Assembly (NCBI GenBank): GCA_902556355.1
Contig: CACDVW010000001.1
Location: 5,164-69,163 of the forward strand
Direction of reading: 5' to 3'
DNA from: an uncultured SAR86 cluster bacterium
GTDB lineage: Bacteria > Pseudomonadota > Gammaproteobacteria > Magnimaribacterales > D2472
Length of the DNA stretch: 64,000 bases
Numbering within the stretch: position 1 is the first letter of the stretch; each line of letters opens with the position of its first letter. Both the position numbers and the translations under genes were made by a program. Of this stretch, positions 1 through 37,264 are shown piece by piece. Below the pieces are notes generated by a model, which saw nothing but the letters and a program-made list of their open reading frames with translations, was not told the origin of the DNA and did not search any database.

Positions 1-782
1 TTTTCACATAATTCATTTAGCTCAGTTAAATACATTCTTGGCCATAAATAGATAATTTTTTTATCTAAAAAATAATTTTTTGAAAGATATAGCTCACCTA
101 GAGCAACATGGCCTCCCCTTCTTGATCCATCAGTAAAATCACGAGCCATTCTTGATGAATACTTTACAACATAATCTTTATCATCATAGGTAACGGTACT
201 TCTTTGTTTGCCAAATTCTTTCCATGAGCCTTTATATCTTGTTTTAAACTTTTTCATGAATTTCTCGTAGCTCGATTCGAGATAATTATTTATATATTCA
301 TGCATTTTAGACATGTCAGAGCTCATATACATCAAAATATTTTTTATCACATCTAGTTCATCAGTAACCAAATAAGGGGTCTTTAAATTTTTAGACATTT
401 TATATGTTATACCGTACAAGTCTTCTTGAATTTTATGCTTGCCCTTTTTGAGATAATACACACCGACGACTCCATTTAAAACAGCCCCATATGCATGATG
501 CAATCGTTGCATTTGAGCATTCCCGGAAGAACCTCTGTTCAACGCATCTGTTCCTTCAATGGCTAGAACTGGTATATCTTTATTTCCTTCTTTCTTTACA
601 TATACACAATCATTAGATCCATAGGACTTACCATTATGACTAAAGGTAAGCCCTCCATCTTCAAATAGTTTTTGATCGTCATTAGACCCCTCAAAGAATA
701 CCCTGGCCTCATACCCAAATGGTGCAATACCAACATGATCAATGATTTCTCTTTTGATGGTTTCGTCGCTTGATAGGGCCAT
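1..782 (-). CDS. Hypothetical protein, C-terminus cut by the window edge. Candidate nuclease or partner subunit of the adjacent R-M operon.
   Basis: My own minus-strand translation from the ATG at 782..780 stays open to position 1 (MALSSDETIKREIIDHVGIAPFGYEARVFFEGSNDD...DCVYVKKEGNKDIPVLAIEGTDALNRGSSGNAQMQRLHH...). It is absent from the track because it has no stop in the window. It lies 45 nt downstream of 828..1913. No family recognised. Confidence 0.55.
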   Translation of the reverse strand, partial: MALSSDETIKREIIDHVGIAPFGYEARVFFEGSNDDQKLFEDGGLTFSHNGKSYGSNDCVYVKKEGNKDIPVLAIEGTDALNRGSSGNAQMQRLHHAYGAVLNGVVGVYYLKKGKHKIQEDLYGITYKMSKNLKTPYLVTDELDVIKNILMYMSSDMSKMHEYINNYLESSYEKFMKKFKTRYKGSWKEFGKQRSTVTYDDKDYVVKYSSRMARDFTDGSRRGGHVALGELYLSKNYFLDKKIIYLWPRMYLTELNELCE

Positions 783-827
783 ATGTTCATTTGAGCATAT
801 GATTTTTTTCTTTGCAAAGTTTTGGAA

Positions 828-1913
828 TCAGAATTCTTTTTTTAAAACTAATTTTATTAGTTTGTTGATATCAATTTCACTAATTATATTAATAAGATCT
901 TTTTCTGATGAAACATCATTTCCAAATAAATTTTTGTTAATTTGATTGATCTCATCGAATGTAAAATTTGATAAAAGATATAACTTGCAATATCCACTAA
1001 ACCATTTTGAGAATTCAGTCTGTTTAGTTTTATTTACCACATTTTTGTATGAGGATTTTTTAAAAAACACATTATTTTCTTTGACTGAAAGTAAAGATGA
1101 GGTTTCTACCTCAGGAATTTGGTTGTTATTATGTATTTCGATTACATTTTCAAAAACCTCATAGTTGGCGTATTTTTGTATTTGTTTTTCTAAAGTTGCA
1201 GATTCTGTTTTGGCCTCTCCAATTAAAAATTCATCTTTATCAATAACTTCAGTATTATTATTTTCTTCTTGCGAAGGAAACATTCTTATCATTGATAGCT
1301 CAATTATATTAAATCCTGATGGAAGAATTGTTCTAAGGCAATTCTCATTTTGTATTTGGCTCTGCTTTATAGCCATAAAATCAGGACTTCCCGATTTATA
1401 ATCTAATGGAACTTGAGTTTCTGTAATATATCCATTTTTTGAAAAATAAAAAGAAGATATCATTTCAAGGTAGGGCTCCATCCCATAACCCTTTTTAGAT
1501 TTATCAATTTTCAAAACTAAAATATTTTCATTCTCTGATCTATTAAGGTTTTTTTTAATTATTTTTCTAAAATGATTTTCATTCTCGATTTCAACTGGAA
1601 CAAAAATTTTATTTCCTTTAAATAAATATTCTCTTTTTTTAGACAATAATATGGGTGAATATTTTGGTTTATATCCATCATATATGCCTGTGATAAATCT
1701 ATATTCCAATGCAGATGAAACAATTTTAAGAAGTCCTCTTGTAGAAAAAGGATAAATAGAATTTTCTAAATATGCGCTACCAGATAAACTGCTAACCAAA
1801 AAAGCTGTTCTGGGATCAAGTATTAACCCTTGACCTATAGGTGTGTCTGTAATTTTTACATTTAATAACTTTTGTAAAGTATATAAAACACTTTTACTTT
1901 CAAGATTAGACAT
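828..1913 (-). CDS. Hypothetical protein; candidate restriction endonuclease (possible PD...ExK motif)
   Basis: 361-aa ORF with an ATG start that overlaps the upstream methyltransferase stop by 8 nt (ATGTCTAA). It contains SGSPDFMAIK ... FLIGEAKTES, which could be a PD-(D/E)xK motif with long spacing. The context is two MTases. Confidence 0.6.
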   Translation of the reverse strand: MSNLESKSVLYTLQKLLNVKITDTPIGQGLILDPRTAFLVSSLSGSAYLENSIYPFSTRGLLKIVSSALEYRFITGIYDGYKPKYSPILLSKKREYLFKGNKIFVPVEIENENHFRKIIKKNLNRSENENILVLKIDKSKKGYGMEPYLEMISSFYFSKNGYITETQVPLDYKSGSPDFMAIKQSQIQNENCLRTILPSGFNIIELSMIRMFPSQEENNNTEVIDKDEFLIGEAKTESATLEKQIQKYANYEVFENVIEIHNNNQIPEVETSSLLSVKENNVFFKKSSYKNVVNKTKQTEFSKWFSGYCKLYLLSNFTFDEINQINKNLFGNDVSSEKDLINIISEIDINKLIKLVLKKEF

Positions 1914-3036
1914 TTCTCATAATCAAAACTCTATCGAGTTTCTCTTTTTTCTTTTGAATTGAATTAGTTCCACCATATTTCACAATTGTTGTTTTTGATG
2001 CTGGTATTTGATCATTAATAATATCAACCTTTTTAAAACCAATTTTTTCATAAAGATCAGCAATGTCTTCAGCTGTGTTTAGTGACTTGCTTGGAGAAAG
2101 ATGAACATCTCCTAAAATAAATACAAGTAAACCGTCTTTTTTTAATACTCGTTTCATTTCCCTTCCAACCAAATACATTTGATCAAGGTAGGTAGATCTT
2201 TGTTGGATTAAATTAGTAGTTAATTCCTCTTGTTGGTGATCATTTTGATCACATAACCACAACCTAAGCCTATTGGAGTGAACATAGTCTAGGGTGTGGT
2301 AATAAGGTGGGGATGAAATAACATTGTTTACTGAATTAGTTTTTAGAGATAGCTTTCTTGAGTCTTCTTGAAGAATTTTTCCTTGAACATCTAAACTAAC
2401 TTCATCCTTATACATCCTTGATGCTTTGCTAATCATTCTTGGGATTACTTCTCTATATTCTTTTTTAGGTTTTGGATTTGGAATATATGGAATTATATAT
2501 CCGGTTCTAATAGATAGATGTTGAGGTCTGTGACCATGTAAAATCCCCAAAAGACATCCGTATAAAAAATTTCTTTCATTTTTAATTAAAATCTCTTTAA
2601 GCTGTAGTATTTCTACAAGTGTTTTTTTATGGAAATATTCTTTTACCCACATAGGTACAGATTCTAAGTCTGGTATTGGTTCTTTTTTCAAATTGATTTG
2701 ATTTAAAAAATTAATTTCTTCATCAACCCCCCTTCTATCAAATTTTGATTTTGAAATTAACACAGCGTAGGGATTTAAATCATTTCCTATAAATTTACGA
2801 TTTAATTGATCTAACTCTAAGGGAATTGTTCCAATACCACAAAAAGGATCCAAAACTACCTGACCTTCAGTTGTTAATTCTTTTATTAAAAAATGAGCAA
2901 ATGCTGGTTTAATTCTTCCAACATACGATGAAATAGAATGCATCCAAATTCCCCAATTTTGTTTTGAAAATGGCTGCTCTTTCCATGGACACTTTTTAAG
3001 TCGCCTTATCCTTTTTTTTAAATCACTATCATTCAT
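1906..3036 (-). CDS. SAM-dependent DNA methyltransferase with an SPPY motif (N4-cytosine or N6-adenine type)
   Basis: AdoMet motif VLDPFCGIGT (aa 61-70) and catalytic motif SSPPYY (aa 241-246) are separated by about 170 aa (order I, insert, IV). There is an 8-nt ATGAATGA overlap with the upstream MTase. Confidence 0.85.
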   Translation of the reverse strand: MNDSDLKKRIRRLKKCPWKEQPFSKQNWGIWMHSISSYVGRIKPAFAHFLIKELTTEGQVVLDPFCGIGTIPLELDQLNRKFIGNDLNPYAVLISKSKFDRRGVDEEINFLNQINLKKEPIPDLESVPMWVKEYFHKKTLVEILQLKEILIKNERNFLYGCLLGILHGHRPQHLSIRTGYIIPYIPNPKPKKEYREVIPRMISKASRMYKDEVSLDVQGKILQEDSRKLSLKTNSVNNVISSPPYYHTLDYVHSNRLRLWLCDQNDHQQEELTTNLIQQRSTYLDQMYLVGREMKRVLKKDGLLVFILGDVHLSPSKSLNTAEDIADLYEKIGFKKVDIINDQIPASKTTIVKYGGTNSIQKKKEKLDRVLIMRNV

Positions 3037-4084
3037 CTTTTTTGAAAATCAAACAATAATGGTGAACAATGTTGGAGGTCCATCCAAAAGGATATCCAAA
3101 TGGCGCTAATCCAACTTTATCTTGACACCATATTTTTTCATCTTTTAATGAATACTTTGTTTCTAAGTTTTTAGCTAAATCCCATGCGAGTGGATAATGC
3201 TTACCTGATTTTTTTAAATTCTTTACAATAACAACCAAATATCCACCTGGTTTAATAAAACTAAATATATCTAAATATATATTTGAAAGAATTGATAAAA
3301 ATTCCTTGTAATCACTTATATTTCCAATGTCTTCTTCAAATGAAGAATAATTAATATCTAGATTTTTTGAACTTCTTATTTTAGAAAATTTACCTGTACT
3401 TCTGTTAAGAATGTCCCAATAAGGAGGTGAACTTATACAAAAATCAATTTTATCTACTTTATGTTTTTTTAATAATTTTTTGACATTTTTAGAATCTCCA
3501 TGAATCACTTTCGATTTGGTTCTAAGTTTAATTATTTGACAATACTTTTTATTTATCTCAATACCAATACCCGTTCTATTAGTTCTGTCACATGCAACTA
3601 AAGTAGACCCAATTCCAGAAAAGGGATCAAAAACTATCTCATTTTCTTTTGTAAAAAATTTAATAAAATCTTCCATCATAGATGGTGAATATGTTGCAGG
3701 ATGTTCTTCAGCATTTAACCCAGCCTTTGTTGTAATTTCTTTTTCTTCTTTTAAGTCTTTACTGAGAGCGTCAAACACAAACCAGCTTTTAGTAAATTTG
3801 GTCCAGCTTTTTCCTTCTAAGTGATTTAATTTATTTCTTAATGAGTAAGATCCTCTTTCTGGATCTAATATAATGGAATCTGCTTTTTCAATTTCACCTT
3901 TGGTATGAAAAAGAGATACATTCTTCCAGTCATCTTGATATTCTTTTGGAATAGTTTTAAAAATCTTTTTCCTTCTTATTGATCTTAATATATCCCTGGC
4001 TTGTATATGCAACTCCTCAGATGCAACTGGTACTATTTTTCTTTTATCTGAATAATAAAAATATGGTCTTTTAAGTGATTTCAC
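3029..4084 (-). CDS. SAM-dependent DNA methyltransferase with an SPPY motif (N6_N4_Mtase-like)
   Basis: Motifs HPATYSPSMMEDFIKFF...VFDPFSGIGST (aa 128-161), IGIEINKKY, then ISSPPYWD (aa 217-224), only about 60 aa after motif I. The start is GTG. Confidence 0.85.
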   Translation of the reverse strand: MKSLKRPYFYYSDKRKIVPVASEELHIQARDILRSIRRKKIFKTIPKEYQDDWKNVSLFHTKGEIEKADSIILDPERGSYSLRNKLNHLEGKSWTKFTKSWFVFDALSKDLKEEKEITTKAGLNAEEHPATYSPSMMEDFIKFFTKENEIVFDPFSGIGSTLVACDRTNRTGIGIEINKKYCQIIKLRTKSKVIHGDSKNVKKLLKKHKVDKIDFCISSPPYWDILNRSTGKFSKIRSSKNLDINYSSFEEDIGNISDYKEFLSILSNIYLDIFSFIKPGGYLVVIVKNLKKSGKHYPLAWDLAKNLETKYSLKDEKIWCQDKVGLAPFGYPFGWTSNIVHHYCLIFKKDE

Positions 4085-4127
4085 GTATCGAATTATATAT
4101 TATTTTAGTATGTTAAATATTTGTTAT

Positions 4128-4574
4128 TCATGCGTTTTTCCAATAACTTAATGTTTTTTGATTAATTTGTGTTTGATCACAAATATCGGTAATTGATGTA
4201 TAAAATTTATCTGCAGACTCGTCATCAATTAGTAGTCTCAAGCATTCAATGATTCTTGTTATCCTGAGTTGATTATGGTTATATCCTCTTTTCCAATACT
4301 TATGTCTTTTTAAGAAAGATAAAAACCAATCAGAAGATTTAATGATATTTTGTCTTACCAGATTATCATTTTTTAATATCTGGACTAATTCATCTGTATC
4401 CAAATAGTATCCATGAAATGAGGACTGGCTTTTTTTGTTTAATGGAAAAAGTATTTGAATAAAGTCATGATTAATTTCTATTTCGTTGTCTGAGTAATTC
4501 CATATGTCCTGAATCATTCTATTTTTAAAGTCTGAATCTTTACCCAATAAAAAATTATGGAAATTCATCTCCAT
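4128..4574 (-). CDS. OGFr_N-like protein (homologue of the opioid growth factor receptor conserved region)
   Basis: NHDFIQILFPL and YNHNQLRITRIIECLRLL match the two signature blocks of the OGFr N-terminal domain (human HNHTYIQWLFPL / QHNYLRITRILKSLGELG). The track start at 4577 is TTG; the ATG at 4574 is preferred. Confidence 0.75.
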   Translation of the reverse strand: MEMNFHNFLLGKDSDFKNRMIQDIWNYSDNEIEINHDFIQILFPLNKKSQSSFHGYYLDTDELVQILKNDNLVRQNIIKSSDWFLSFLKRHKYWKRGYNHNQLRITRIIECLRLLIDDESADKFYTSITDICDQTQINQKTLSYWKNA

Positions 4575-4628
4575 CAAAAAAGAGTCTCTGATTTATTTGT
4601 TTGATTTAAGAATATGATTTTAAAAAAT

Positions 4629-5021
4629 TTACTTATTCTTTCTTGAGAAGTCATTAATATCTCCATAAAATGATTCAAAAATCAAAGCTCCGTTGGTGAT
4701 TTTTATAAACTTCTTAACGTGTTCAGATGTTGGTACCCGATAACCATACGCGTATGATTTCATGGTTGATCTTTTTTCATCAAAAATTTCAGAAGACGCT
4801 CTAATACCAATATGTAAAATTAAATTTTGAAATGTATAAATATTGTTATTTTTAACTAAGTCAATTTTTTTTCTCTTATAAGAATTGATAATTTTTTTAT
4901 TTTTATTTAAAAATAGATCTAATGGATCATCGTAGGACTCTTCATTATTTTTAAATAAAATAGTTTTTGATTTTGCGTATTTCTCTATGTTTTTATAGTA
5001 ATTTAATTGATACTCATCCAT
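4629..5021 (-). CDS. Hypothetical protein (130 aa)
   Basis: The ATG start overlaps the upstream protease stop by 8 nt (ATGGATGA), which suggests translational coupling. No motif recognised. Confidence 0.6.
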   Translation of the reverse strand: MDEYQLNYYKNIEKYAKSKTILFKNNEESYDDPLDLFLNKNKKIINSYKRKKIDLVKNNNIYTFQNLILHIGIRASSEIFDEKRSTMKSYAYGYRVPTSEHVKKFIKITNGALIFESFYGDINDFSRKNK

Positions 5022-5727
5022 TTATTGTCCCTATAAAAATTTTTTCAGATTTATAATGAAATGTTAATGCGAAGTGATGAAAGATGTCTGCCCCCAAGAT
5101 TGCTTTAGTGTTTGAAGATAACATTGCTGATTCAAGTTGATCTGGCAAAACCCCAAAATTAAAAGGTATTTCAATTCCGTTAAACGTAATTGGAAGTGAG
5201 TATATTGGAACATCAAATTCACCAAAACTAGGAAAGAAGTCTTTCTTTTGATCTATTGCAATTAAATCTTTTACATATTGACTATTAATATACGAAATCT
5301 TTGCCCCAGTATCTAACCAAGATATGATTGGGTAGTCTTTGTTCACTATGACATACATTGAGGGTATGCTTCTAAAATCTGCATCGACGTATATTTCTTG
5401 ATTAATTTCATTCTCCGGAAATGAGTCCCATACAGAAAATAATTTATTCTTAAAATCAATTTGAAAAACATAATTTGCTAGAACATTGTTGCCAATTAAT
5501 GCATCAAGATGGCATCCAACAAATTCACTTAACTGTTCTATGTCTGCTCCGTGATATTTGTCCTTTGTTGCAAAAGTTCTATCAAAGATTTCGAATACAT
5601 CTTCTCCAGATATTGAAACAGGTGCCCCGGTGTCAATCAGAATTCTTCTATCTTTGTCTAATACAATGACATGATTATCAAAGATATCTATTTCATATCT
5701 TTTGCAATTATTAACATCATTATTCAT
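5014..5727 (-). CDS. Single-chain, two-lobed retropepsin-like aspartic peptidase
   Basis: Two DTGA catalytic motifs (ILIDTGAPVS aa 29-38; WLDTGAKIS aa 137-145). Each is followed about 45-70 aa later by a retropepsin-type ILG-like block (LIGNNVL aa 77-83; ILGADIF aa 210-216). Confidence 0.7.
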   Translation of the reverse strand: MNNDVNNCKRYEIDIFDNHVIVLDKDRRILIDTGAPVSISGEDVFEIFDRTFATKDKYHGADIEQLSEFVGCHLDALIGNNVLANYVFQIDFKNKLFSVWDSFPENEINQEIYVDADFRSIPSMYVIVNKDYPIISWLDTGAKISYINSQYVKDLIAIDQKKDFFPSFGEFDVPIYSLPITFNGIEIPFNFGVLPDQLESAMLSSNTKAILGADIFHHFALTFHYKSEKIFIGTING

Positions 5728-6123
5728 CTATGTCTCAAGTCCTATAATTCTTTTTTGGCACTCATGAAAATCAATCAAGTATTCGTAGGGTTTTATTGTC
5801 TCTATATTATGTTCGACTACTCTTCTAAACATAGACTCAATGTTTTTTATGGCTGATGTATGTCCATACTTAATTTTGTAATCTTCAATGGTTTCTTCGA
5901 TTACTTCTTGATGAATGATTAACATTGTCATTCCACTAACAAAAAGATCCTTTGATGAGTACCATCTAACATTGTTTCTATTTCTATCGTCTTCGATTAT
6001 TAAGTAATCTGTAAACTCTTTTGATTCTTTTATGAAGTCTTTGCATGACTCTACAAGTTCATGATCATCATTAGTTAACTCAACTTCATTAAAATTACCG
6101 AAAATACTCTGAACGTTAGACAT
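5728..6123 (-). CDS. Hypothetical protein (131 aa), first gene downstream of the SOS-box-like site
   Basis: ATG start. Its TAG stop abuts the protease ATG (TAGATG). No motif recognised. Confidence 0.6.
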   Translation of the reverse strand: MSNVQSIFGNFNEVELTNDDHELVESCKDFIKESKEFTDYLIIEDDRNRNNVRWYSSKDLFVSGMTMLIIHQEVIEETIEDYKIKYGHTSAIKNIESMFRRVVEHNIETIKPYEYLIDFHECQKRIIGLET

Positions 6124-6149
6124 CTATCAATACTATCGAAAATAATTAC

Positions 6150-6169
6150 TACTGTATATACATATAGTT
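6150..6169 (-). promoter_or_regulatory. LexA (SOS) box-like operator TACTGTATATACATATAGTT
   Basis: CTGT-N8-ATAG, the same half-sites and spacing as the box in front of the window's own lexA (36617..36636, TACTGTATAAATATATAGTA). It lies 27 nt upstream of the 5728..6123 start codon, in a 48-nt intergenic gap. Confidence 0.5.
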
Positions 6170-6171
6170 AA

Positions 6172-6375
6172 TTAATCGTACTTATTTTTTAAAGTCTTGG
6201 TTATCTCTCTCATAAAAGAAAGTTGAGAAAATAAATTTGCACTTTCATCATTTAAATCTTCCCACGTTAACCAATCAAAATTATTGGATCCAATTTTTCC
6301 AAGTTTCTTTATTTTTTTATCAATTGACTTAATTCTAAACCAAAGTCTAATATCGTTATCATTTTTGATTTCCAT
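6172..6375 (-). CDS. Hypothetical small protein (about 67 aa)
   Basis: An internal ATG (MEIKNDNDIRLWF...) sits 1 nt after the stop of the upstream ORF. The longer track start (6420) would overlap that ORF by 44 nt. Confidence 0.5.
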   Translation of the reverse strand: MEIKNDNDIRLWFRIKSIDKKIKKLGKIGSNNFDWLTWEDLNDESANLFSQLSFMREITKTLKNKYD

Positions 6376-6376
6376 A

Positions 6377-6670
6377 TTAGACCCAAGTATTAGTTGAATA
6401 CTTGATTCCCTTATCATCACAAATATCTTTTAAGTCATGAAGAGTGAATTTCTCTTCGGAATTAAATCCCATGATAAGAATCTCTATTGCGAACTTGGGT
6501 AAATAGTCTTTCTCAATAATTAGATAATACTCATACTCATCATTACCCCAGAATTCTTCAACATCTGAACCGTAGTGAAAAGAACTGAGAATAAGGTCTC
6601 CATTAACACCATATTCACCATAAACAGAATAACTGCCATGGGGAAACTCTTCTCTATAGATTTGTTCCAT
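6377..6670 (-). CDS. Hypothetical acidic small protein (about 97 aa)
   Basis: The ATG at 6670 (MEQIYREEF...) is preceded by GGAG with a 6-nt spacer. Alternative starts are the ATG at 6682 and the GTG at 6691. The protein is rich in E/D/Y. Confidence 0.55.
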   Translation of the reverse strand: MEQIYREEFPHGSYSVYGEYGVNGDLILSSFHYGSDVEEFWGNDEYEYYLIIEKDYLPKFAIEILIMGFNSEEKFTLHDLKDICDDKGIKYSTNTWV

Positions 6671-6810
6671 ATTTTTCTCCATAAAAATCACACTCGAAAT
6701 TGAGTGAAATGACGTGGGTAATGAAATTCGAAATAGAAAAAATATTTCTTTGATTACACTTATATATATGGGGTTTAGATTAGGTTTTTAAAGGTCGGTT
6801 AGATAGTTTA

Positions 6811-7305: not shown

Positions 7306-8679
7306 TTAATTAAGTTTTTTATCAATTCCTTGAATCCTGTTTAGATATTCATGAGTTTCTTGGGAATTAAGTATTATAGTTTCTCGGTCTCTTCTTAAAT
7401 AAAAAATAGGCTCTTTGTCTGGATATTTTTTAATCTTGTTAAAATGTGTATCTACACAAAAAACTCCCCCGTTTACTCTTTCAACTGAAATTTCACAAAC
7501 TCTTTTATTCTGAATTGTTTCATATACAAAAGATATTTTGTTTGAAACTTCTTTTCCCAGACAGTCCATTACATATCTGTTAATAAGACGTGTGTACTCA
7601 TCTTCATTTTCAACAAGAACTTTAGGAATTTTATTGCTGATTTTATCTTTTTCTAAACCTATGATTTCCAAGTCATCTCTAACACCAATTATTAAAGTTC
7701 CTCCTTTAGAATTCATAAACCCAGCTATTGCTTTAAGACATTCGTGTCTTATCTCTTTTAAGACATTGTTTGTTTTCTGACATTTAAAAAAAGAAGATTT
7801 TAGTTCAACAGTGGTAGTTTCGTGATTAATTATTTTTGACATAATTCTGTCTACTGATTCTGATTCAAAAAACTTTAAATAGTCTTCTACTGTTGTTGAT
7901 GCAAGGGTTAAGCTTTGTCTAGTCATTTGCTGAGTTTCATTTAAATTTATTAAACCTTTTTCATTTGGTATAGGGTCTGTTAAATCTTCTCGTAGACTCA
8001 TCATGCTGCTAACAAATTCCTCTTTTCTGATTATTTGGGTTACTAAAAAAAGGGGTATTATTATTGAAGACATTCCGAATGATTTATAGGTCGCATGAAG
8101 AGTTATAAGGCAAGCTCTCTGTTCTTCAGTTAAAGTTTTTATATCATTGATAATGCTTTTTACAATTTTTAGTTCTTGATATTTTTTAATATCAATAAAA
8201 TCAAAAGGATTTTCATCCTTGTCTAAATTTCCTCTTAAGGGGTTGTTATGATAAATTCTTGCCATTCCGTATTGAAATAGTTTATGTACTTCTTCTTCTC
8301 CATATTTGCTTATTAGCGCTTTGGTCACAGAGTTGCTTCTTCGATGTTTAATATTTTCAGAATCAGGGTCCATTAACTCGGAAACCCACAAACCATCTTC
8401 ATAAATTGCGTGTGGGTAATAATTGTGATAATCACTGTTTTCAGTTCCATGAATTTGTGTGCTAAAGATTCTATATGCACAAAATTCTTGTGTATTAATA
8501 TAACCATCTTTTAATTCTGTATTTGAACAATTTTCAAGATCAGCAATAATAAAATCCAAGAATGATTTATTTGTATGGCATATTTCAGATTTTCCACGAA
8601 AATTAAGAATGTTTTTTTGTGTTGATTCATCAATTATGAAATATTTGTTATTTTTTTTTAATATGGAGAAAAAATTCAT
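7306..8679 (-). CDS. AlbA_2 (Schlafen-like, 'divergent AAA') domain protein with an unknown N-terminal domain of about 280 aa
   Basis: The C-terminal block TVELKSSFF...EIRHECLKAIAGFMNSKGGTLIIGVRDDLEIIGLE matches the AlbA_2 signature (E.K ... ia AfaNt.GG.l.iGv.d.g.i.G). The start lies 5 nt after the stop of 8685..8966. Confidence 0.7.
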   Translation of the reverse strand: MNFFSILKKNNKYFIIDESTQKNILNFRGKSEICHTNKSFLDFIIADLENCSNTELKDGYINTQEFCAYRIFSTQIHGTENSDYHNYYPHAIYEDGLWVSELMDPDSENIKHRRSNSVTKALISKYGEEEVHKLFQYGMARIYHNNPLRGNLDKDENPFDFIDIKKYQELKIVKSIINDIKTLTEEQRACLITLHATYKSFGMSSIIIPLFLVTQIIRKEEFVSSMMSLREDLTDPIPNEKGLINLNETQQMTRQSLTLASTTVEDYLKFFESESVDRIMSKIINHETTTVELKSSFFKCQKTNNVLKEIRHECLKAIAGFMNSKGGTLIIGVRDDLEIIGLEKDKISNKIPKVLVENEDEYTRLINRYVMDCLGKEVSNKISFVYETIQNKRVCEISVERVNGGVFCVDTHFNKIKKYPDKEPIFYLRRDRETIILNSQETHEYLNRIQGIDKKLN

Positions 8680-9040: not shown

Positions 9041-9736
9041 CTAAATATAGTTAGTGTCCTGTATGTCAGATTGATAAATATCATAGCTACTCATGCACAT
9101 TCTTTCAGAATGTTTAATAGCATGTGACAGTCCTTCGATAGTAAAGCGCATATCTTTTAGAGGTGATGAATTATCAAATTTAATTTCAAAAGATTTAGCA
9201 TCTCTCATGGATAGAATGTATTTTAGTTTAAAGACGTAGTCGATATTAGAACCTTCGCCAATGATATTGCCTACCTTCAAAACAATATCTTTCGGTTTGC
9301 CCCTATCAACAGTCATAGTTGCTTTAATTTCATCATCCTCTGAATAGTTAGTGTTTCCAACTGGTGCTGTAATTGTTGGCTCAGAGGTAACACAAAAAGG
9401 TCTAGCCATTTCTAGATAAAAATTAGTATTAGTATCATTACCTGTTTTATGGAGGATAAGATTTTCATTGGAGTAAGAATCTATACCCCAGCCATCAATA
9501 GTTCTTGTCCAGTCAGCTGAGAGAAATGAAGATGAGACTGTAAGGAGGAGGATAAACTTATGATGCTTGTACATAGGGTTCCCGGAGAAAGGACCGAGAT
9601 GTACCATCTTGTCGTCTAAGATAATCTCATCTTCATATTCAAACAAATCTTTCTTGGGCTTTAACCATCTCTTAACACCAAGACCAACTGTGAAAATTAT
9701 TAAACCAAGTAAACCAAACCCAAAAACTTCTTCCAT
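9041..9736 (-). CDS. Membrane-anchored hypothetical protein (231 aa); predicted target of the island ECF sigma factor
   Basis: N-terminal TM segment (FGFGLLGLIIFTVGLGV) and an AGGAG Shine-Dalgarno 6 nt before the ATG. It is preceded by the TGTAAC-N16-CGTTAAG motif. Confidence 0.65.
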   Translation of the reverse strand: MEEVFGFGLLGLIIFTVGLGVKRWLKPKKDLFEYEDEIILDDKMVHLGPFSGNPMYKHHKFILLLTVSSSFLSADWTRTIDGWGIDSYSNENLILHKTGNDTNTNFYLEMARPFCVTSEPTITAPVGNTNYSEDDEIKATMTVDRGKPKDIVLKVGNIIGEGSNIDYVFKLKYILSMRDAKSFEIKFDNSSPLKDMRFTIEGLSHAIKHSERMCMSSYDIYQSDIQDTNYI

Positions 9737-9773
9737 ATATAACTCCTAAATAAAAAAATTGTTTCGTTATTTT

Positions 9774-9807
9774 CTTAACGTGTCAGAAATGGATTTGTTA
9801 CAAATTA
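9774..9807 (-). promoter_or_regulatory. ECF-type promoter motif TAATTTGTAACA-N13-ACGTTAAG (copy 2)
   Basis: Minus strand: ATTAATTTGTAACAAATCCATTTCTGACACGTTAAG. The AAC (-35) and CGT (-10) elements are spaced as in TGTAAC-N16-CGT ECF consensus promoters. Both conserved blocks are identical to those at 11071..11104. Confidence 0.6.
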
Positions 9808-9809
9808 AT

Positions 9810-10469
9810 TTAACAATGACAAAAGATATGACGTTTTACTTCACTGGCTGCGAAGGAAACATCGACAGTTTCAATAATAGATAAATCAACAAAGTAATCT
9901 CTATCTGCTCTTGGAGCATTGATATCATTGTTTACAAAGAAATCTTTATTAGCTTCATAGATTGCGTACATAACTTGATACTTATCTACTCCCAGATCGT
10001 TAGCTATCTGTGATGCAGTGCTCCATAGAGTTTCCATCTCAGAGCCAGATACAAATATTGGCTCGGGCTCTTCAATGACTTCTCTAATCATTGGTTCGGT
10101 CTCTTCATATGCTATCTGTACCGAAGAGACTGGTTCTACTATCTCAGAAGAGGACTTCACAATCGTAAAAGCTATAACTCCAAGACTTGCTGCAATTGCA
10201 AAACCAATTAAAGGTTTGAAATTAATTGTTGAAACATTCGAAAGCTTCTCAAGTTGCTCACTGATAAAAGCTTCTGCCTTAGCATTGAGCTCATCTCTTC
10301 TTTCCCCGCCAAAGAAGCCCTCAAGCATGGACTCTGAGACAAGCAAGCTTTCATAAAATTCTTTGGCTTCTTTTGAGGCATCAATAAGTGCTTTTAGCTC
10401 AGGAGAGTTTTCGAGCGTAGCTCCATCATCCATTAGTTCAATTATTTGTATTTGCTTTTCTTCGTTCAT
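9810..10469 (-). CDS. Anti-sigma factor-like single-pass membrane protein with a FimV/LysM-like C-terminal domain
   Basis: Its ATG overlaps the sigma-factor TGA (ATGA). It has a central TM segment (LIGFAIAASLGVIAFTIV). The C-terminal TLWSTASQIANDLGVDKYQVMYAIYEANKDFFVNNDIN resembles the FimV N-terminal motif. Confidence 0.65.
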   Translation of the reverse strand: MNEEKQIQIIELMDDGATLENSPELKALIDASKEAKEFYESLLVSESMLEGFFGGERRDELNAKAEAFISEQLEKLSNVSTINFKPLIGFAIAASLGVIAFTIVKSSSEIVEPVSSVQIAYEETEPMIREVIEEPEPIFVSGSEMETLWSTASQIANDLGVDKYQVMYAIYEANKDFFVNNDINAPRADRDYFVDLSIIETVDVSFAASEVKRHIFCHC

Positions 10470-11044
10470 AATTTTCTGTCCATACATTTAGCAAGTTTTA
10501 TTCTTGCTCTATTAGCTTTCACCCTCAAATTTGCCATACTGTTATCACTCACAACTTCTTGAATCTCTTCATAGCTATGACCAGCACCCAGCATTGATAA
10601 AATAATTTGATCTGTTTCATCAAAAGACTCTAAGCATGTGAGCATTTGCTGAAACTCAAAATTCTGTTGGTGAAATCCATCATTGGTTACTGGTATATCA
10701 TTACCTTCAATTGAGACCATTCTTTTTTGTTTGCGTAAATTATCTACATGGTTATTCTTGAGAATTTTTTTGGCGTAAGCCATGGGTTTTGCATGCTCTA
10801 AGAATTTATCTTTGTTGTTGATTAGTTTTATTATGGTGTTATGAACCAAGTCTGATGAATCTGCCTTATTCTTATAAGTTAAAAACATGGCATAAGGCAT
10901 TAGCTTTTTGCTCATATCTTCAAGTAATTCTTTAAATGTCATCTCTATTTCATTCTTACACGATTTATTATCTTCGTGTCTAAGCGCAAGAAGTTTTTCC
11001 TGCTTATTTACAGTCCTAGATTCTATGTTCACAAGTGCTTCCAT
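10466..11044 (-). CDS. ECF-family (sigma-70 group 4) RNA polymerase sigma factor
   Basis: Region 2-like DLVHNTIIKLINNKDKF...AKKILKNNHVDNLRKQKR and a region 4 HTH, DQIILSMLGAGHSYEEIQEVV...NLRVKANRARIKLAKCM. Confidence 0.8.
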   Translation of the reverse strand: MEALVNIESRTVNKQEKLLALRHEDNKSCKNEIEMTFKELLEDMSKKLMPYAMFLTYKNKADSSDLVHNTIIKLINNKDKFLEHAKPMAYAKKILKNNHVDNLRKQKRMVSIEGNDIPVTNDGFHQQNFEFQQMLTCLESFDETDQIILSMLGAGHSYEEIQEVVSDNSMANLRVKANRARIKLAKCMDRKL

Positions 11045-12253: not shown

Positions 12254-12553
12254 TTAGGCAGTTATTTTTCTATTTTTGAGCAAATATTTTTTTAGCACTA
12301 TTGGGTCGCCACCATTTTCTATTTGATACTCCTCTGATGTTTTCAATTTTCCTCCCTCACACCACGCAAAAACTCCCTCAGAGTATTTACTTGGATTCTT
12401 TGTTGATTCTGTGCCATCAATAATTATGTAGTTATATCCATCTTCAAAAATTGAAGGTTTAAATAGTTTGTATATAAGTTTTATCCATTGAAATATAGTT
12501 ATAACGACTATAACTAACCAAGCTGTAAAAATTATAAGAACAATGCTTGTCAT
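12254..12553 (-). CDS. N-terminally membrane-anchored hypothetical protein (99 aa)
   Basis: ATG start and TM segment IVLIIFTAWLVIVVITIF. Confidence 0.55.
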   Translation of the reverse strand: MTSIVLIIFTAWLVIVVITIFQWIKLIYKLFKPSIFEDGYNYIIIDGTESTKNPSKYSEGVFAWCEGGKLKTSEEYQIENGGDPIVLKKYLLKNRKITA

Positions 12554-12787: not shown

Positions 12788-12945
12788 TTTTAACTCCTAT
12801 GTTTGTTAGTTAACCGCATCTTTTTTCCACCTTGCCGGAGTTGGCAGGTTGGAGAGGAACTTAATCCTGCTCGTAATGCATATCAATATTATAACAAATG
12901 AATTGGCACAGGTATTGCAATACAAAGGGTATTTAGGAGGTATTT

Positions 12946-36616: not shown

Positions 36617-36636
36617 TACTGTATAAATATATAGTA
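36617..36636 (+). promoter_or_regulatory. LexA autoregulatory SOS box TACTGTATAAATATATAGTA
   Basis: CTGT-N8-ATAG, 13 nt upstream of the lexA ATG. It differs from the gammaproteobacterial consensus TACTGTATATATATACAGTA mainly at C to T in the right half-site. Confidence 0.7.
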
Positions 36637-36649
36637 TATTTAAAACATT

Positions 36650-37264
36650 ATGAAAGATATTACACCACAACAACAAAAAGTGCTTGATTGTATTCAAGTA
36701 TACATAAATAAAACAGGCTTTCCTCCTACAAGAGCAGATATTTGTAGAGAGCTAGGATTTAAATCACCTAATTCGGCTGAAACTCACCTAAGAGCTCTTG
36801 AAAAGAAAGACTTTATTTCAATAGAAAGCGGTGCCTCAAGAGGTATATCAATAAATAATCCAGAAATTAAGCATGAGGGTAACGATTATCCCATAGTTGG
36901 ATTAGTTGCTGCTGGGTCACCAACTTTAGCAAGTGAAAATGTCGAAAAAGTACTAAATTGTCCAAAAGGTTTCTTTGGATCTGATTTTGATTATTTCTTA
37001 AGGGTTAGAGGTCTTAGCATGAAAGATGCTGGAATTATGGAAGATGATTTGATTGCTGTTAAAAAAACTCAAGAAATTAAAAATGGTGATATTGTTATTG
37101 CAAGAATAGAAGATGAAGTAACAGTCAAATATTTTCAAAGAAGTGCTCCAAATATAGTTCACCTAAAACCAGCAAATGAAGAATTTAATGATATAGAAGT
37201 TAATCTTGAAGAGACTGAATTATATATAGAAGGAAAAAGTGTCGGGCTAATTAGAGAGAATTAG
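36650..37264 (+). CDS. lexA: LexA repressor
   Basis: N-terminal winged HTH, AG cleavage site (VAAGSP), and S/K peptidase motifs (GLSMKDAGI, VKYF). Confidence 0.95.
   Translation: MKDITPQQQKVLDCIQVYINKTGFPPTRADICRELGFKSPNSAETHLRALEKKDFISIESGASRGISINNPEIKHEGNDYPIVGLVAAGSPTLASENVEKVLNCPKGFFGSDFDYFLRVRGLSMKDAGIMEDDLIAVKKTQEIKNGDIVIARIEDEVTVKYFQRSAPNIVHLKPANEEFNDIEVNLEETELYIEGKSVGLIREN

What the first reader, a model, noticed from the sequence alone, without database searches (positions are those of the whole stretch)
4128..6169. Candidate DNA-damage-inducible four-gene module: the island operator copies the host lexA box variant
The 48-nt gap upstream of 5728..6123 contains TACTGTATATACATATAGTT (6150..6169). 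The window's own lexA gene is preceded by TACTGTATAAATATATAGTA (36617..36636).

Both are CTGT-N8-ATAG. They share the same departure (ATAG rather than ACAG) from the gammaproteobacterial consensus, which argues for a genuine organism-specific LexA site rather than chance in AT-rich DNA.

The genes downstream of the box run without a large gap:
- 131 aa, unknown
- double-DTGA protease
- 130 aa, unknown
- 51-nt gap
- OGFr_N homologue
- 43-nt gap, then the R-M operon

I know of no described SOS-controlled module combining an aspartic protease with an OGFr-like protein. It could be an induction, abortive-infection or mobile-element function tied to DNA damage.
Basis: partly seen in the sequence, partly recalled or inferred. 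Interest (0 to 1): 0.75.

Follow-up and report, generated by a model that had tools for sequence, protein, structure and literature searches.

The report
SOS operator leading a SAR86 cargo operon
A real-looking DNA-damage (LexA) switch sits in front of a small SAR86-specific gene that heads a swappable string of cargo genes, here an unusual mini aspartic protease and a restriction system, so the switch is probably genuine but the "four-gene module" is a mosaic rather than a fixed unit.

Summary
TACTGTATATACATATAGTT (6150-6169) and the lexA box (36617-36636) are the only two sites in 64 kb within 5 mismatches of the LexA consensus. Simulations expect about 0.02, and 1.25 Mb of other SAR86 DNA holds none outside lexA.

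The site sits 26 nt before the ATG of the 131-aa gene in seven of eight lineages of that gene, down to 36% protein identity. Its arms are invariant and its centre varies. I read it as a LexA operator over the -35 of a probably leaderless promoter.

- **The "ATAG variant" is not a new LexA specificity.** The recognition helix is identical in SAR86 clades whose lexA box is TCAG (58 of 73) or ATAG (13 of 73).
- **The four genes are not a coherent module.** The operator travels with the 131-aa gene alone, and the downstream cargo differs between loci, often including R-M systems.
- **A recombination junction lies at the 131-aa/protease border.** Identity to a related genome is 79% on the p131 side and 92-99% on the cargo side.
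- **The protease family mostly occurs without the box.**

The protease is a confident 237-aa bilobal pepsin-like enzyme. The functions of the 131-aa and 130-aa proteins remain unknown. This is a plausible SOS-controlled operon in a defence hotspot of an uncultured marine bacterium.

The parts
6150..6169 (.). LexA-type operator. Plus strand TACTGTATATACATATAGTT; gene strand AACTATATGTATATACAGTA.
   Evidence: It has 3 mismatches to the consensus, and only lexA's own box is as good in 64 kb. It keeps the same register, 26 nt before the ATG, in 7 of 8 lineages of the 131-aa gene. Arm identity is 94-100%, against 64% further upstream.
6153..6158 (-). Inferred -35 hexamer TATACA, inside the gene-proximal half of the operator.
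   Evidence: It lies 17 nt upstream of the conserved TAGTAT (read). This is an inference, not tested.
6130..6135 (-). Inferred -10 hexamer TAGTAT, 6 nt before the ATG. This would give a leaderless or near-leaderless mRNA.
   Evidence: It is 97% conserved across lineages and is also present in the box-less L027 lineage. No Shine-Dalgarno-like sequence appears in any lineage. This is an inference.
5728..6123 (-). p131: an acidic 131-aa soluble helical-bundle protein specific to SAR86. It is the constant gene behind the operator.
   Evidence: It has no Pfam, PHROG, NCBIfam or PADLOC hit. The AF2 model has pLDDT 84 and four long helices, with no informative PDB match. The family has only 24 representatives at E <= 0.001 among 1.84 billion. 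pI is 4.8 and there is no TM segment.
5014..5727 (-). 237-aa single-chain bilobal aspartic protease made of tandem retropepsin-like halves; cytoplasmic.
   Evidence: D32-T33-G34 and D139-T140-G141-A142 are invariant in 40 homologues of 24-90% identity. The family profile hits the Ddi1 retropepsin domain with both halves (2i1a, E 4.8e-8). AF2 gives pLDDT 93 and pTM 0.89. Foldseek matches 9iy9, plasmepsins and renin over the full length (E about 1e-6 to 6e-8, TMq 0.55-0.61). The start abuts the p131 stop as TAGATG.
4629..5021 (-). p130: a basic 130-aa protein of unknown function, overlapping the protease gene by 8 nt.
   Evidence: Only 3 homologue clusters were found, all next to the protease. 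It has no family or PDB match. pI is 9.5.
4128..4577 (-). OGFr_N-like protein: 149 aa from the TTG, or 146 aa from the ATG at 4568. Optional cargo.
   Evidence: Pfam PF04664 scores 35.3 bits against a cut-off of 22, covering profile positions 26-138 of 208. It is present after the trio in the window, L022 and L112-L119, and absent in L010.
828..4084 (-). R-M cassette: two N6/N4 DNA methyltransferases (3029-4084, 1906-3036) and a 361-aa putative endonuclease (828-1913).
   Evidence: PF01555 scores 86 and 68 bits. The 361-aa protein has no hit. The cassette is 96-99% identical to L022. A promoter-like ATAACA-17-AATAAT lies in the 43-nt gap before it, and no terminator-like hairpin is found in either gap.
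36617..36636 (.). The autoregulatory operator of lexA, TACTGTATAAATATATAGTA, 13 nt before the ATG.
   Evidence: It is the same sequence in the 13 closest SAR86 species. 58 others have a TACTGTATATATATTCAGTA-type box.
36650..37264 (+). lexA
   Evidence: TIGR00498 scores 209.6 bits. The protein is 100% identical to SAR86 genomes JAYQKD01 and AG-390-L11. The catalytic and cleavage residues are present.

Best explanation
**Shown**
- The 20-bp site is a conserved LexA-type palindrome at a fixed position in front of p131.
- p131 is a small acidic helical protein confined to SAR86-like genomes.
- The genome encodes an intact, autoregulated LexA.

**Inferred: the promoter and the switch**
- The operator covers the -35 (TATACA) of a promoter whose -10 (TAGTAT) lies 6 nt before the ATG, which would make the mRNA leaderless.
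- LexA represses this promoter. DNA damage (RecA-ssDNA, then LexA self-cleavage) switches it on.
- The one weakened arm (CTAT instead of CTGT) would make this a lower-affinity, easily induced operator. It does not reflect a new LexA specificity.

**Shown: the unit and its cargo**
- Operator plus p131 form the unit that persists.
- This unit heads co-oriented arrays of 2-7 cargo genes that differ between lineages. The arrays sit in variable, defence-rich regions: beside an ECF-sigma operon, beside tRNA-Ile, or ending at tRNA-Phe.

**Inferred: co-transcription in this window**
- The cargo here is a cytoplasmic bilobal aspartic protease with its 130-aa partner, an OGFr_N-like protein, and a two-methylase R-M cassette.
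- The protease and p130 are packed stop-to-start behind p131, so they are almost certainly co-transcribed.
- The OGFr-like gene is possibly co-transcribed.
- The R-M cassette probably has its own promoter.

**Most likely role, from neighbourhood only**
- Damage-boosted expression of defence or stress cargo in a defence hotspot, with the protease as the effector of the trio.
For: **The operator is not chance**
- Arm identity is 94-100%, the centre is variable, and spacing to the ATG is fixed in the window/L114, L010, L022, L025, L132, L131 and L241 lineages.

**LexA**
- LexA is present, intact and autoregulated by a near-identical box.

**Promoter model**
- TAGTAT is 97% conserved, including in the box-less L027 lineage, and sits 17 nt from TATACA.

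**Gene packing**
- The p131 stop and protease start abut as TAGATG, and the protease and p130 overlap by 8 nt.
- No terminator-like hairpins occur in the gaps.

**Mosaic structure**

**Protease**

**Defence-type neighbours**
- R-M systems follow p131 in 4 of 7 boxed configurations.
- A SLFN_AlbA_2 gene lies upstream.
- BREX, MrcB_N/HNH, WYL, M78/HTH and PARG genes lie near protease homologues.
Against: - No binding or expression data exist.
- One arm lacks the G of CTG. In E. coli this is among the most constrained operator positions (my own knowledge), so affinity may be low.
- One p131 lineage (L027-L031) has no box.
- The leaderless promoter is a sequence inference. The generic promoter scan did not pick it out.
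- No other SOS gene of this organism could be examined.
- The defence role rests on neighbourhood only. PADLOC gives only marginal hits (E 0.0026), and p131 and p130 have no recognisable fold or family.
Confidence: 0.62

Rival explanations
1. LexA controls only p131, which performs a lineage-specific SOS task of its own, such as a division inhibitor or a damage-tolerance factor. Many bacteria have such small, non-homologous SOS genes. On this reading the protease, p130, the OGFr-like gene and the R-M cassette are unrelated cargo that landed downstream. They run from their own promoters or gain nothing functional from read-through.
For: - The box travels with p131 whatever follows it.
- A recombination junction lies at the p131/protease border.
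- The protease family mostly lacks both the box and p131.
- A promoter-like element lies before the R-M cassette.
Against: - The first cargo gene abuts p131 stop-to-start in the window, L010, L022 and L241. That leaves no room for a promoter, so at least that gene must share the transcript.
- The arrays behind p131 are always co-oriented.
Confidence: 0.25
2. The four genes form one coherent SOS-controlled module of a mobile island. Its operator has been tuned to, or copied from, the host's peculiar ATAG lexA box, which reflects an organism-specific LexA preference.
For: - The four genes recur together in the window, L022 and L114-L119.
- The ATAG lexA box is fixed in the window's sub-clade.
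- p131 arrays lie next to tRNA genes in some lineages.
Against: - The LexA recognition helix is identical in the ATAG and TCAG clades.
- The CTAT arm is conserved with p131 homologues down to 36% identity, in different genomic settings and with different cargo.
- L010 has the trio without the OGFr-like gene.
- The variant arm has the opposite orientation relative to the gene at the two loci.
- No integrase or phage genes were seen, and there are no relatives in IMG/VR.
Confidence: 0.08
3. The site is not bound by LexA. It is either a chance AT-rich palindrome or the operator of another regulator, and the genes are not damage-inducible.
For: - The genome is about 30% G+C and rich in TATA-like runs.
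- One arm departs from CTGT.
- The loose pattern is not enriched.
Against: - About 0.02 such sites are expected per window, and none occur in 1.25 Mb of SAR86 DNA outside lexA operators.
- 17 of 20 bases match the host's own lexA operator.
- The arms are strictly conserved at a fixed distance across deep divergence.
Confidence: 0.05

Closest known systems
Gammaproteobacterial SOS (LexA) boxes, CTGT-N8-ACAG, in front of lineage-specific or accessory genes. Examples from my own knowledge: E. coli sulA, dinI, yebG, tisB, colicin operons and integron integrases.
   Same: - A 20-bp palindrome close to TACTGTATATATATACAGTA overlaps the promoter region just upstream of a small gene.
- The same genome has an autoregulated lexA with a near-identical box.
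   Different: - One arm is CTAT.
- The regulated genes have no relatives among described SOS genes.
- The operator-plus-leader gene heads interchangeable cargo arrays.
- No experimental SOS data exist for SAR86; a full-text search for SAR86 with LexA found nothing relevant.
DNA-damage-responsive control of defence systems and defence islands. Examples: CapH/CapP and WYL-type regulators (my own knowledge), and a WYL regulator linking the damage response and anti-phage networks in Moraxellaceae (PMC12392091, abstract seen).
   Same: A damage signal would raise expression of genes lying in a defence-rich variable region containing R-M and Schlafen/AlbA_2 genes.
   Different: - The sensor here would be the host LexA itself, acting at a classical operator, rather than a dedicated island-encoded repressor/protease pair.
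- A defence function of p131, the protease and p130 is not shown.
Retropepsin-like and pepsin-like aspartic proteases: the eukaryotic Ddi1 retropepsin domain (PDB 2i1a), Rickettsia APRc (PMC4140852), Shewanella shewasins (PMC4814920) and the Bacteroides fragilis putative endopeptidase 9iy9.
   Same: - Two invariant D-T-G motifs, each followed by the hydrophobic-hydrophobic-Gly motif.
- Profile matches to Ddi1 for both halves.
- A predicted bilobal fold that superposes on 9iy9, plasmepsins and renin.
   Different: - It is only 237 aa and a single chain, whereas retropepsins are homodimers of about 100-150 aa and pepsins are about 320 aa or more.
- It has no signal peptide or membrane segment.
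- The window protein itself is below Pfam reporting thresholds.
- The resemblance to the damage-inducible Ddi1 concerns the fold only.
Restriction alleviation by proteolysis: ClpXP degradation of the EcoKI HsdR subunit when unmodified host sites arise, including after DNA damage (PMC4231737, PMC11109961).
   Same: A protease gene that is plausibly damage-induced lies just upstream of an R-M cassette, and R-M systems recur behind p131.
   Different: - The known case uses a housekeeping AAA+ protease and a Type I enzyme.
- Here the R-M types vary and the protease is absent from several p131/R-M arrays.
- This is an analogy only and is untested.

Membership tests
LexA (SOS) operator, gammaproteobacterial type | 16-bp core palindrome CTGT-N8-ACAG with an AT-rich centre | tested here: inconclusive
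   One arm is canonical (ACAGTA / TACTGT). The other is CTAT (plus strand ATAG). Overall 17 of 20 bases match the consensus and 17 of 20 match the host lexA box.
LexA (SOS) operator, gammaproteobacterial type | The site occurs far more rarely than chance and lies in a promoter region just upstream of a gene | tested here: met
   0.017 sites are expected per 64 kb, and 0 other sites with 3 or fewer mismatches occur in 1.25 Mb of SAR86 DNA. The site is 26 nt before the ATG, in a 48-nt gap.
LexA (SOS) operator, gammaproteobacterial type | An intact LexA in the same genome, autoregulated through the same kind of box | tested here: met
   TIGR00498 scores 209.6 bits. The Ala-Gly site and the Ser/Lys dyad are present. 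A box lies 13 nt before lexA, and such a box is conserved in all 73 SAR86 genomes examined.
LexA (SOS) operator, gammaproteobacterial type | Conservation of the site in front of orthologues (phylogenetic footprint) | tested here: met
   7 of 8 lineages of p131 (36-97% identity) keep the arms and the spacing. Box identity is 95%, against 64% upstream and 76% in the spacer.
LexA (SOS) operator, gammaproteobacterial type | LexA binding in vitro, and induction by DNA damage | not testable with these tools
   The organism is uncultured and no expression or binding data are available here.
Aspartic proteases of the pepsin/retropepsin superfamily (clan AA) | Two catalytic Asp-Thr/Ser-Gly motifs, one per lobe or subunit, each followed downstream by hydrophobic-hydrophobic-Gly | tested here: met
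   D32-T33-G34 and D139-T140-G141 are invariant in 40 sequences. LIG.N/D.L and I(L/I)G.DIF motifs follow each half.
Aspartic proteases of the pepsin/retropepsin superfamily (clan AA) | Bilobal double-psi beta-barrel fold | tested here: met
   This is met by a model only. AF2 gives pLDDT 93.2 and pTM 0.89. Foldseek against the PDB gives 427 hits at E <= 0.001, led by 9iy9, plasmepsins and renins at TMq 0.55-0.61.
Aspartic proteases of the pepsin/retropepsin superfamily (clan AA) | Match to a curated family model (Pfam RVP, Asp_protease_2, gag-asp_proteas) | tested here: not met
   The window protein has no Pfam hit at E <= 0.01. Some homologues carry precomputed PF13975, PF00077 or PF13650 hits. 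The family profile hits the Ddi1 retropepsin domain at E 4.8e-8.
OGFr_N (PF04664) | Score above the Pfam gathering threshold | tested here: met
   35.3 bits against 22, E 1.1e-8. Only profile positions 26-138 of 208 are covered. The function of the domain in bacteria is undescribed in the searched literature.
LexA-controlled antirepressor modules of prophages and satellites (Tum of phage 186, Gifsy antirepressors; my own knowledge) | The module lies within a prophage or satellite that has integrase, repressor and structural or replication genes | tested here: not met
   No phage-type families were found among the neighbours. No relatives of p131 or the protease exist in IMG/VR or in GenBank phages. 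The left end of the region lies outside the window.
DNA-damage-sensing protease/repressor pairs (ImmA/ImmR, IrrE/DdrO, CapP/CapH; my own knowledge) | An M78-type zinc metalloprotease paired with an HTH repressor | tested here: not met
   The protease is an aspartic enzyme. p131 and p130 have no HTH or any Pfam hit.

The most novel reading that the evidence does not exclude
Operator plus p131 is the SOS-responsive leader of a family of exchangeable cargo arrays in SAR86 variable regions, so host DNA damage or phage attack switches on whatever cargo sits behind it. In this window the damage-induced mini aspartic protease, together with p130, would act on a specific target. One possibility is the neighbouring restriction enzyme, giving restriction alleviation that protects unmethylated repair DNA. 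Another is an essential host or phage protein, giving abortive infection. Either would be a bacterial counterpart of a damage-induced retropepsin-type protease.
Probability: 0.15. Interest if true: 0.75.

Novelty: new member of a known kind. Interest (0 to 1): 0.42.

Why it matters
- **SOS in an uncultured group.** SAR86 is one of the most abundant uncultured groups in the surface ocean, where UV damage is routine, and nothing is known of its SOS regulon. This locus gives a concrete, testable second LexA target besides lexA itself.
- **How accessory cargo gets regulated.** It suggests how streamlined genomes place accessory or defence cargo under a host stress signal, by inserting it behind a conserved operator-plus-leader gene.
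- **A tractable protease.** The 237-aa single-chain bilobal aspartic protease is a compact, confidently modelled representative of an unannotated family. It bears on how pepsin-like enzymes arose from duplicated retropepsin-like units, and it could be expressed and assayed directly.

Tried and rejected
- **Family searches.** Pfam, PHROGs, NCBIfam and PADLOC gave nothing for p131, the protease or p130, apart from marginal PADLOC PDC-M08B hits around the first DTG.
- **p131 fold and family.** Foldseek on the p131 model returned only generic helical bundles, best E 0.42. An exhaustive profile search for p131 found only 24 representatives and no link to a known family.
  - I considered a HEPN-like R-x4-H motif. 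The motif is not conserved and no HEPN structure was matched.
  - I considered a DinB/YfiT-like bundle. There is no His triad and no structural match.
- **PDB sequence searches.** The OGFr-like protein and p130 gave only noise.
- **Phage or satellite origin.**
  - Neither p131 nor the protease has relatives in IMG/VR.
  - GenBank phages have no hit for the protease.
  - The OGFr-like protein has one hit, in a 595-kb uncultured phage.
- **Metagenome pattern scan.** It could not show whether other SOS genes use ATAG arms, but it did yield two further boxed p131 homologues.
- **Altered LexA specificity.** Rejected because the recognition helices are identical.
- **Literature.** Searches for bacterial OGFr_N, SAR86 with LexA, and retropepsin with SOS found nothing relevant.
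- **RNA elements.** Rfam found no RNA element in the 48-nt gap. Folding found no terminators in the intergenic gaps.
Full report
**1. The observation**

The first lies in the 48-nt gap between an upstream ORF (stop at 6172) and the ATG at 6123 of the minus-strand gene 5728-6123. The second lies 13 nt before the gene at 36650-37264. That gene is lexA:
- It scores 209.6 bits on TIGR00498.
- It keeps the Ala-Gly cleavage site and the Ser/Lys dyad.

It has 3 matches against 1.7 expected. The full sites are another matter:
- They have 2 and 3 mismatches to TACTGTATATATATACAGTA, and no other position in 64 kb has 5 or fewer.
- Markov-1 simulations expect 0.017 sites with 3 or fewer mismatches per window.
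- In 1.25 Mb of real SAR86 DNA from 73 genomes, no site that good occurs outside the lexA operators.

**2. Organism and the lexA box**

LexA is 100% identical to two SAR86 genomes, and 73 SAR86 lexA loci were retrieved. Every one has an operator 5-15 nt before lexA:

| lexA operator type | Species genomes |
|---|---|
| CTGT-N8-TCAG | 58 |
| CTGT-N8-ATAG | 13 |
| CTGT-N8-CCAG | 2 |

The 13 ATAG genomes are exactly the sub-clade with LexA at least 92% identical to the window. The ATAG arm at lexA is therefore a derived, fixed, clade-specific change.

The recognition helix (FKSPNSAETHLRALEKKGF) is the same in both groups. The change lies in the site, not in the protein's reading of DNA.

**3. The operator belongs to the 131-aa gene**

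Homologues of the 131-aa protein (p131) exist only in marine metagenomes and SAR86-like MAGs:
- A word-indexed search found 32 hits.
- An exhaustive profile search found 24 representatives among 1.84 billion.

In seven of eight lineages the same palindrome lies 26 nt before the ATG. Those lineages are the window/L114, L010, L022, L025, L132, L131 and L241, at 36-97% protein identity.
- The arms (ACTATA ... TATACAGTA) never change. All substitutions fall in the three central bases.
- Mean column identity is 95% in the box, 76% in the spacer and 64% further upstream.
- One lineage (L027-L031) lacks the box.

A second conserved element, TAGTAT, lies 6 nt before the ATG in all lineages, including the box-less one. 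It sits 17 nt downstream of the TATACA inside the gene-proximal arm. No lineage has a Shine-Dalgarno-like sequence.

I infer a promoter with its -35 inside the operator, its -10 at TAGTAT, and a leaderless mRNA. This is inference from sequence. The generic promoter scan did not select it.

**4. The four genes are a mosaic, not a module**

Different genes follow p131 in different lineages:

| Lineage | Genes following p131 |
|---|---|
| Window, L022, L114 | Protease, p130, OGFr-like; then two N6/N4 methylases and a 361-aa protein in the window and L022 |
| L010 | Protease, p130, then a C5 methylase with a convergent 341-aa gene; no OGFr-like gene |
| L112 | (trio,) OGFr-like, then unrelated convergent genes |
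| L025 | A 107-aa protein and a C5 methylase system, ending at tRNA-Phe |
| L241 | 141-, 152- and 271-aa proteins, then a C5 methylase with an LlaMI-type endonuclease |
| L131 | A 68-aa membrane protein and a 162-aa protein |
| L027 | A 119-aa protein, zinc-ribbon proteins and a kinase |

Further points:
- The protease family has 55 homologues. It mostly occurs without p131 and without any box, often divergent from an ECF sigma gene.
- The 270-aa gene that follows the protease in L014 follows p131-141-152 in L241 (69% identity).
- The p131 arrays lie in at least three settings: beside the ECF-sigma/acnB region, just after tRNA-Ile, and ending at tRNA-Phe.

Nucleotide identity between the window and the syntenic MAG contig L022 shows where the blocks join:

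| Window region | Content | Identity to L022 |
|---|---|---|
| 1-5600 | R-M, OGFr-like, p130, protease | 92-99% |
| 5700-6200 | p131 and operator | about 79% |
| Flanks | ECF-sigma and core regions | 78-83% |

A recombination junction therefore lies at the p131/protease border.

**5. What is co-transcribed**
- The p131 stop and the protease start abut as TAGATG, and the protease and p130 overlap by 8 nt. Those two genes must share p131's transcript.
- The 51-nt and 43-nt gaps contain no terminator-like hairpin.
- The gap before the R-M genes has a promoter-like ATAACA-17-AATAAT.
- My estimates of SOS co-regulation are: protease and p130 likely, the OGFr-like gene possible, R-M doubtful.

**6. 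The proteins**

*Protease (5014-5727)*
- Two D-T-G motifs are invariant across 40 sequences of 24-90% identity.
- Both halves match the Ddi1 retropepsin domain (2i1a, E 4.8e-8).
- The AF2 model has pLDDT 93 and pTM 0.89.
- It superposes over its full length on bilobal aspartic proteases: 9iy9, plasmepsins and renin.
- It has no signal peptide or membrane segment.
- It is a compact cytoplasmic single-chain pepsin-like enzyme of an unannotated family.

*p131*
- It is acidic (pI 4.8).
- The model is a four-helix bundle with pLDDT 84 and no informative structural neighbour.
- The residues conserved among close homologues (H71, Q72) are lost in the 36%-identity homologue. This argues against an enzyme.

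*p130*
- It is basic and has three homologue clusters, always beside the protease.

*OGFr_N-like protein*
- It passes the Pfam threshold, but no literature on bacterial members was found.

**7. Mechanism**

Best-supported reading:
- LexA represses a promoter whose -35 lies inside the operator.
- DNA damage leads to LexA self-cleavage and derepression of p131 and the tightly coupled cargo.
- The weakened CTAT arm should lower affinity and ease induction.

The neighbourhood is defence-rich:
- R-M systems follow p131 in four of seven boxed configurations.
- A Schlafen/AlbA_2 gene lies at 7306-8679, a family reported as anti-phage (PMC12330615).
- BREX, McrB_N/HNH, WYL and M78/HTH genes lie near protease homologues.

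I therefore favour damage-boosted expression of defence or stress cargo, with the protease as effector. This last step is guilt by association only.

Rivals:
- p131 is the only true SOS gene, with unrelated cargo behind it.
- The site is not a LexA site at all.

**8. Comparison and novelty**

A LexA box before a lineage-specific or accessory gene is a well-known kind of arrangement. Damage-linked control of defence islands is also known, through other regulators (PMC12392091).

What is new here:
- The identity of the regulated genes.
- The operator-plus-leader arrangement in front of exchangeable cargo.
- The mini bilobal aspartic protease.

The likeness to the eukaryotic damage-inducible Ddi1 concerns the fold only. 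The proximity to R-M recalls proteolytic restriction alleviation (PMC4231737, PMC11109961), but only as an analogy.

I class this as a new member of a known kind, of moderate interest. There is a 15% chance that the more novel reading holds: an SOS-driven cargo leader with a damage-induced protease acting on restriction or as abortive infection.

Noticed in passing
window 12789-12884 (-): A SAM-I/IV riboswitch scores 77.4 bits against a gathering score of 41.1. It lies right at the edge (12887) of the block that aligns with the core genes of L022. The next minus-strand ORF is an unannotated 99-aa gene at 12254-12553.
   Followed up: no
window 36617-36636; loci L032-L104: SAR86 lexA operators fall into three types: 58 species have CTGT-N8-TCAG, 13 have CTGT-N8-ATAG (the window's sub-clade) and 2 have CCAG. 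The LexA recognition helix is identical in all groups. Why the sub-clade fixed a weaker-looking arm is unexplained.
   Followed up: partly
window about 5600-5800, compared with L022: Nucleotide identity to the related MAG contig steps sharply from 92-99% (R-M, OGFr-like, p130, protease) to about 79% (p131, operator and flanks). This marks a recombination junction.
   Followed up: yes
L241 139-216, L243 46-123, L131 47-124; L025 3138-3213: In other lineages the boxed 131-aa gene lies about 100 nt downstream of a tRNA-Ile(GAT) gene. In L025 the array ends at tRNA-Phe. This suggests island-type insertion sites, but no integrase was seen in the short contigs.
   Followed up: partly
window 7306-8679 (-): A 457-aa protein has a Schlafen/AlbA_2 domain (PF04326, 47.5 bits). 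A 2025 preprint reports this family as anti-phage (PMC12330615). The gene is absent from the syntenic L022, which has a 355-aa gene on the other strand at that position.
   Followed up: no
window 9041-11044 (-); L001, L015, L017, L028, L030: An ECF sigma gene (10466-11044), a 225-aa putative anti-sigma gene and a 231-aa gene form a conserved block. In other contigs either the protease gene or the 131-aa gene sits directly divergent from this sigma gene.
   Followed up: partly
L014 1123-1935 and L241 1666-2481: The same 270-aa gene (69% identity) follows the protease in one lineage and follows p131-141-152 in another. Cargo genes are shuffled among these arrays.
   Followed up: partly
GenBank LR756511.1 178653-179126: The only phage-record relative of the OGFr_N-like protein (27.7% identity, E 8e-9) lies in a 595-kb uncultured 'huge' phage genome.
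   Followed up: no
L215 9646-11710: An unrelated metagenome contig carries 16 copies of TAGTACTGTATGTATGTATAGTACTG at irregular spacing. This is a LexA-box-like palindrome used as a dispersed or tandem repeat.
   Followed up: no
window 6172-6691 (-): Two small genes (104 aa and about 67 aa) lie directly upstream of the operator here and in L114 and L132. They sit elsewhere in L022 (between DUF2237 and the sigma gene), and a 39%-identical copy follows p131 in L025.
   Followed up: partly
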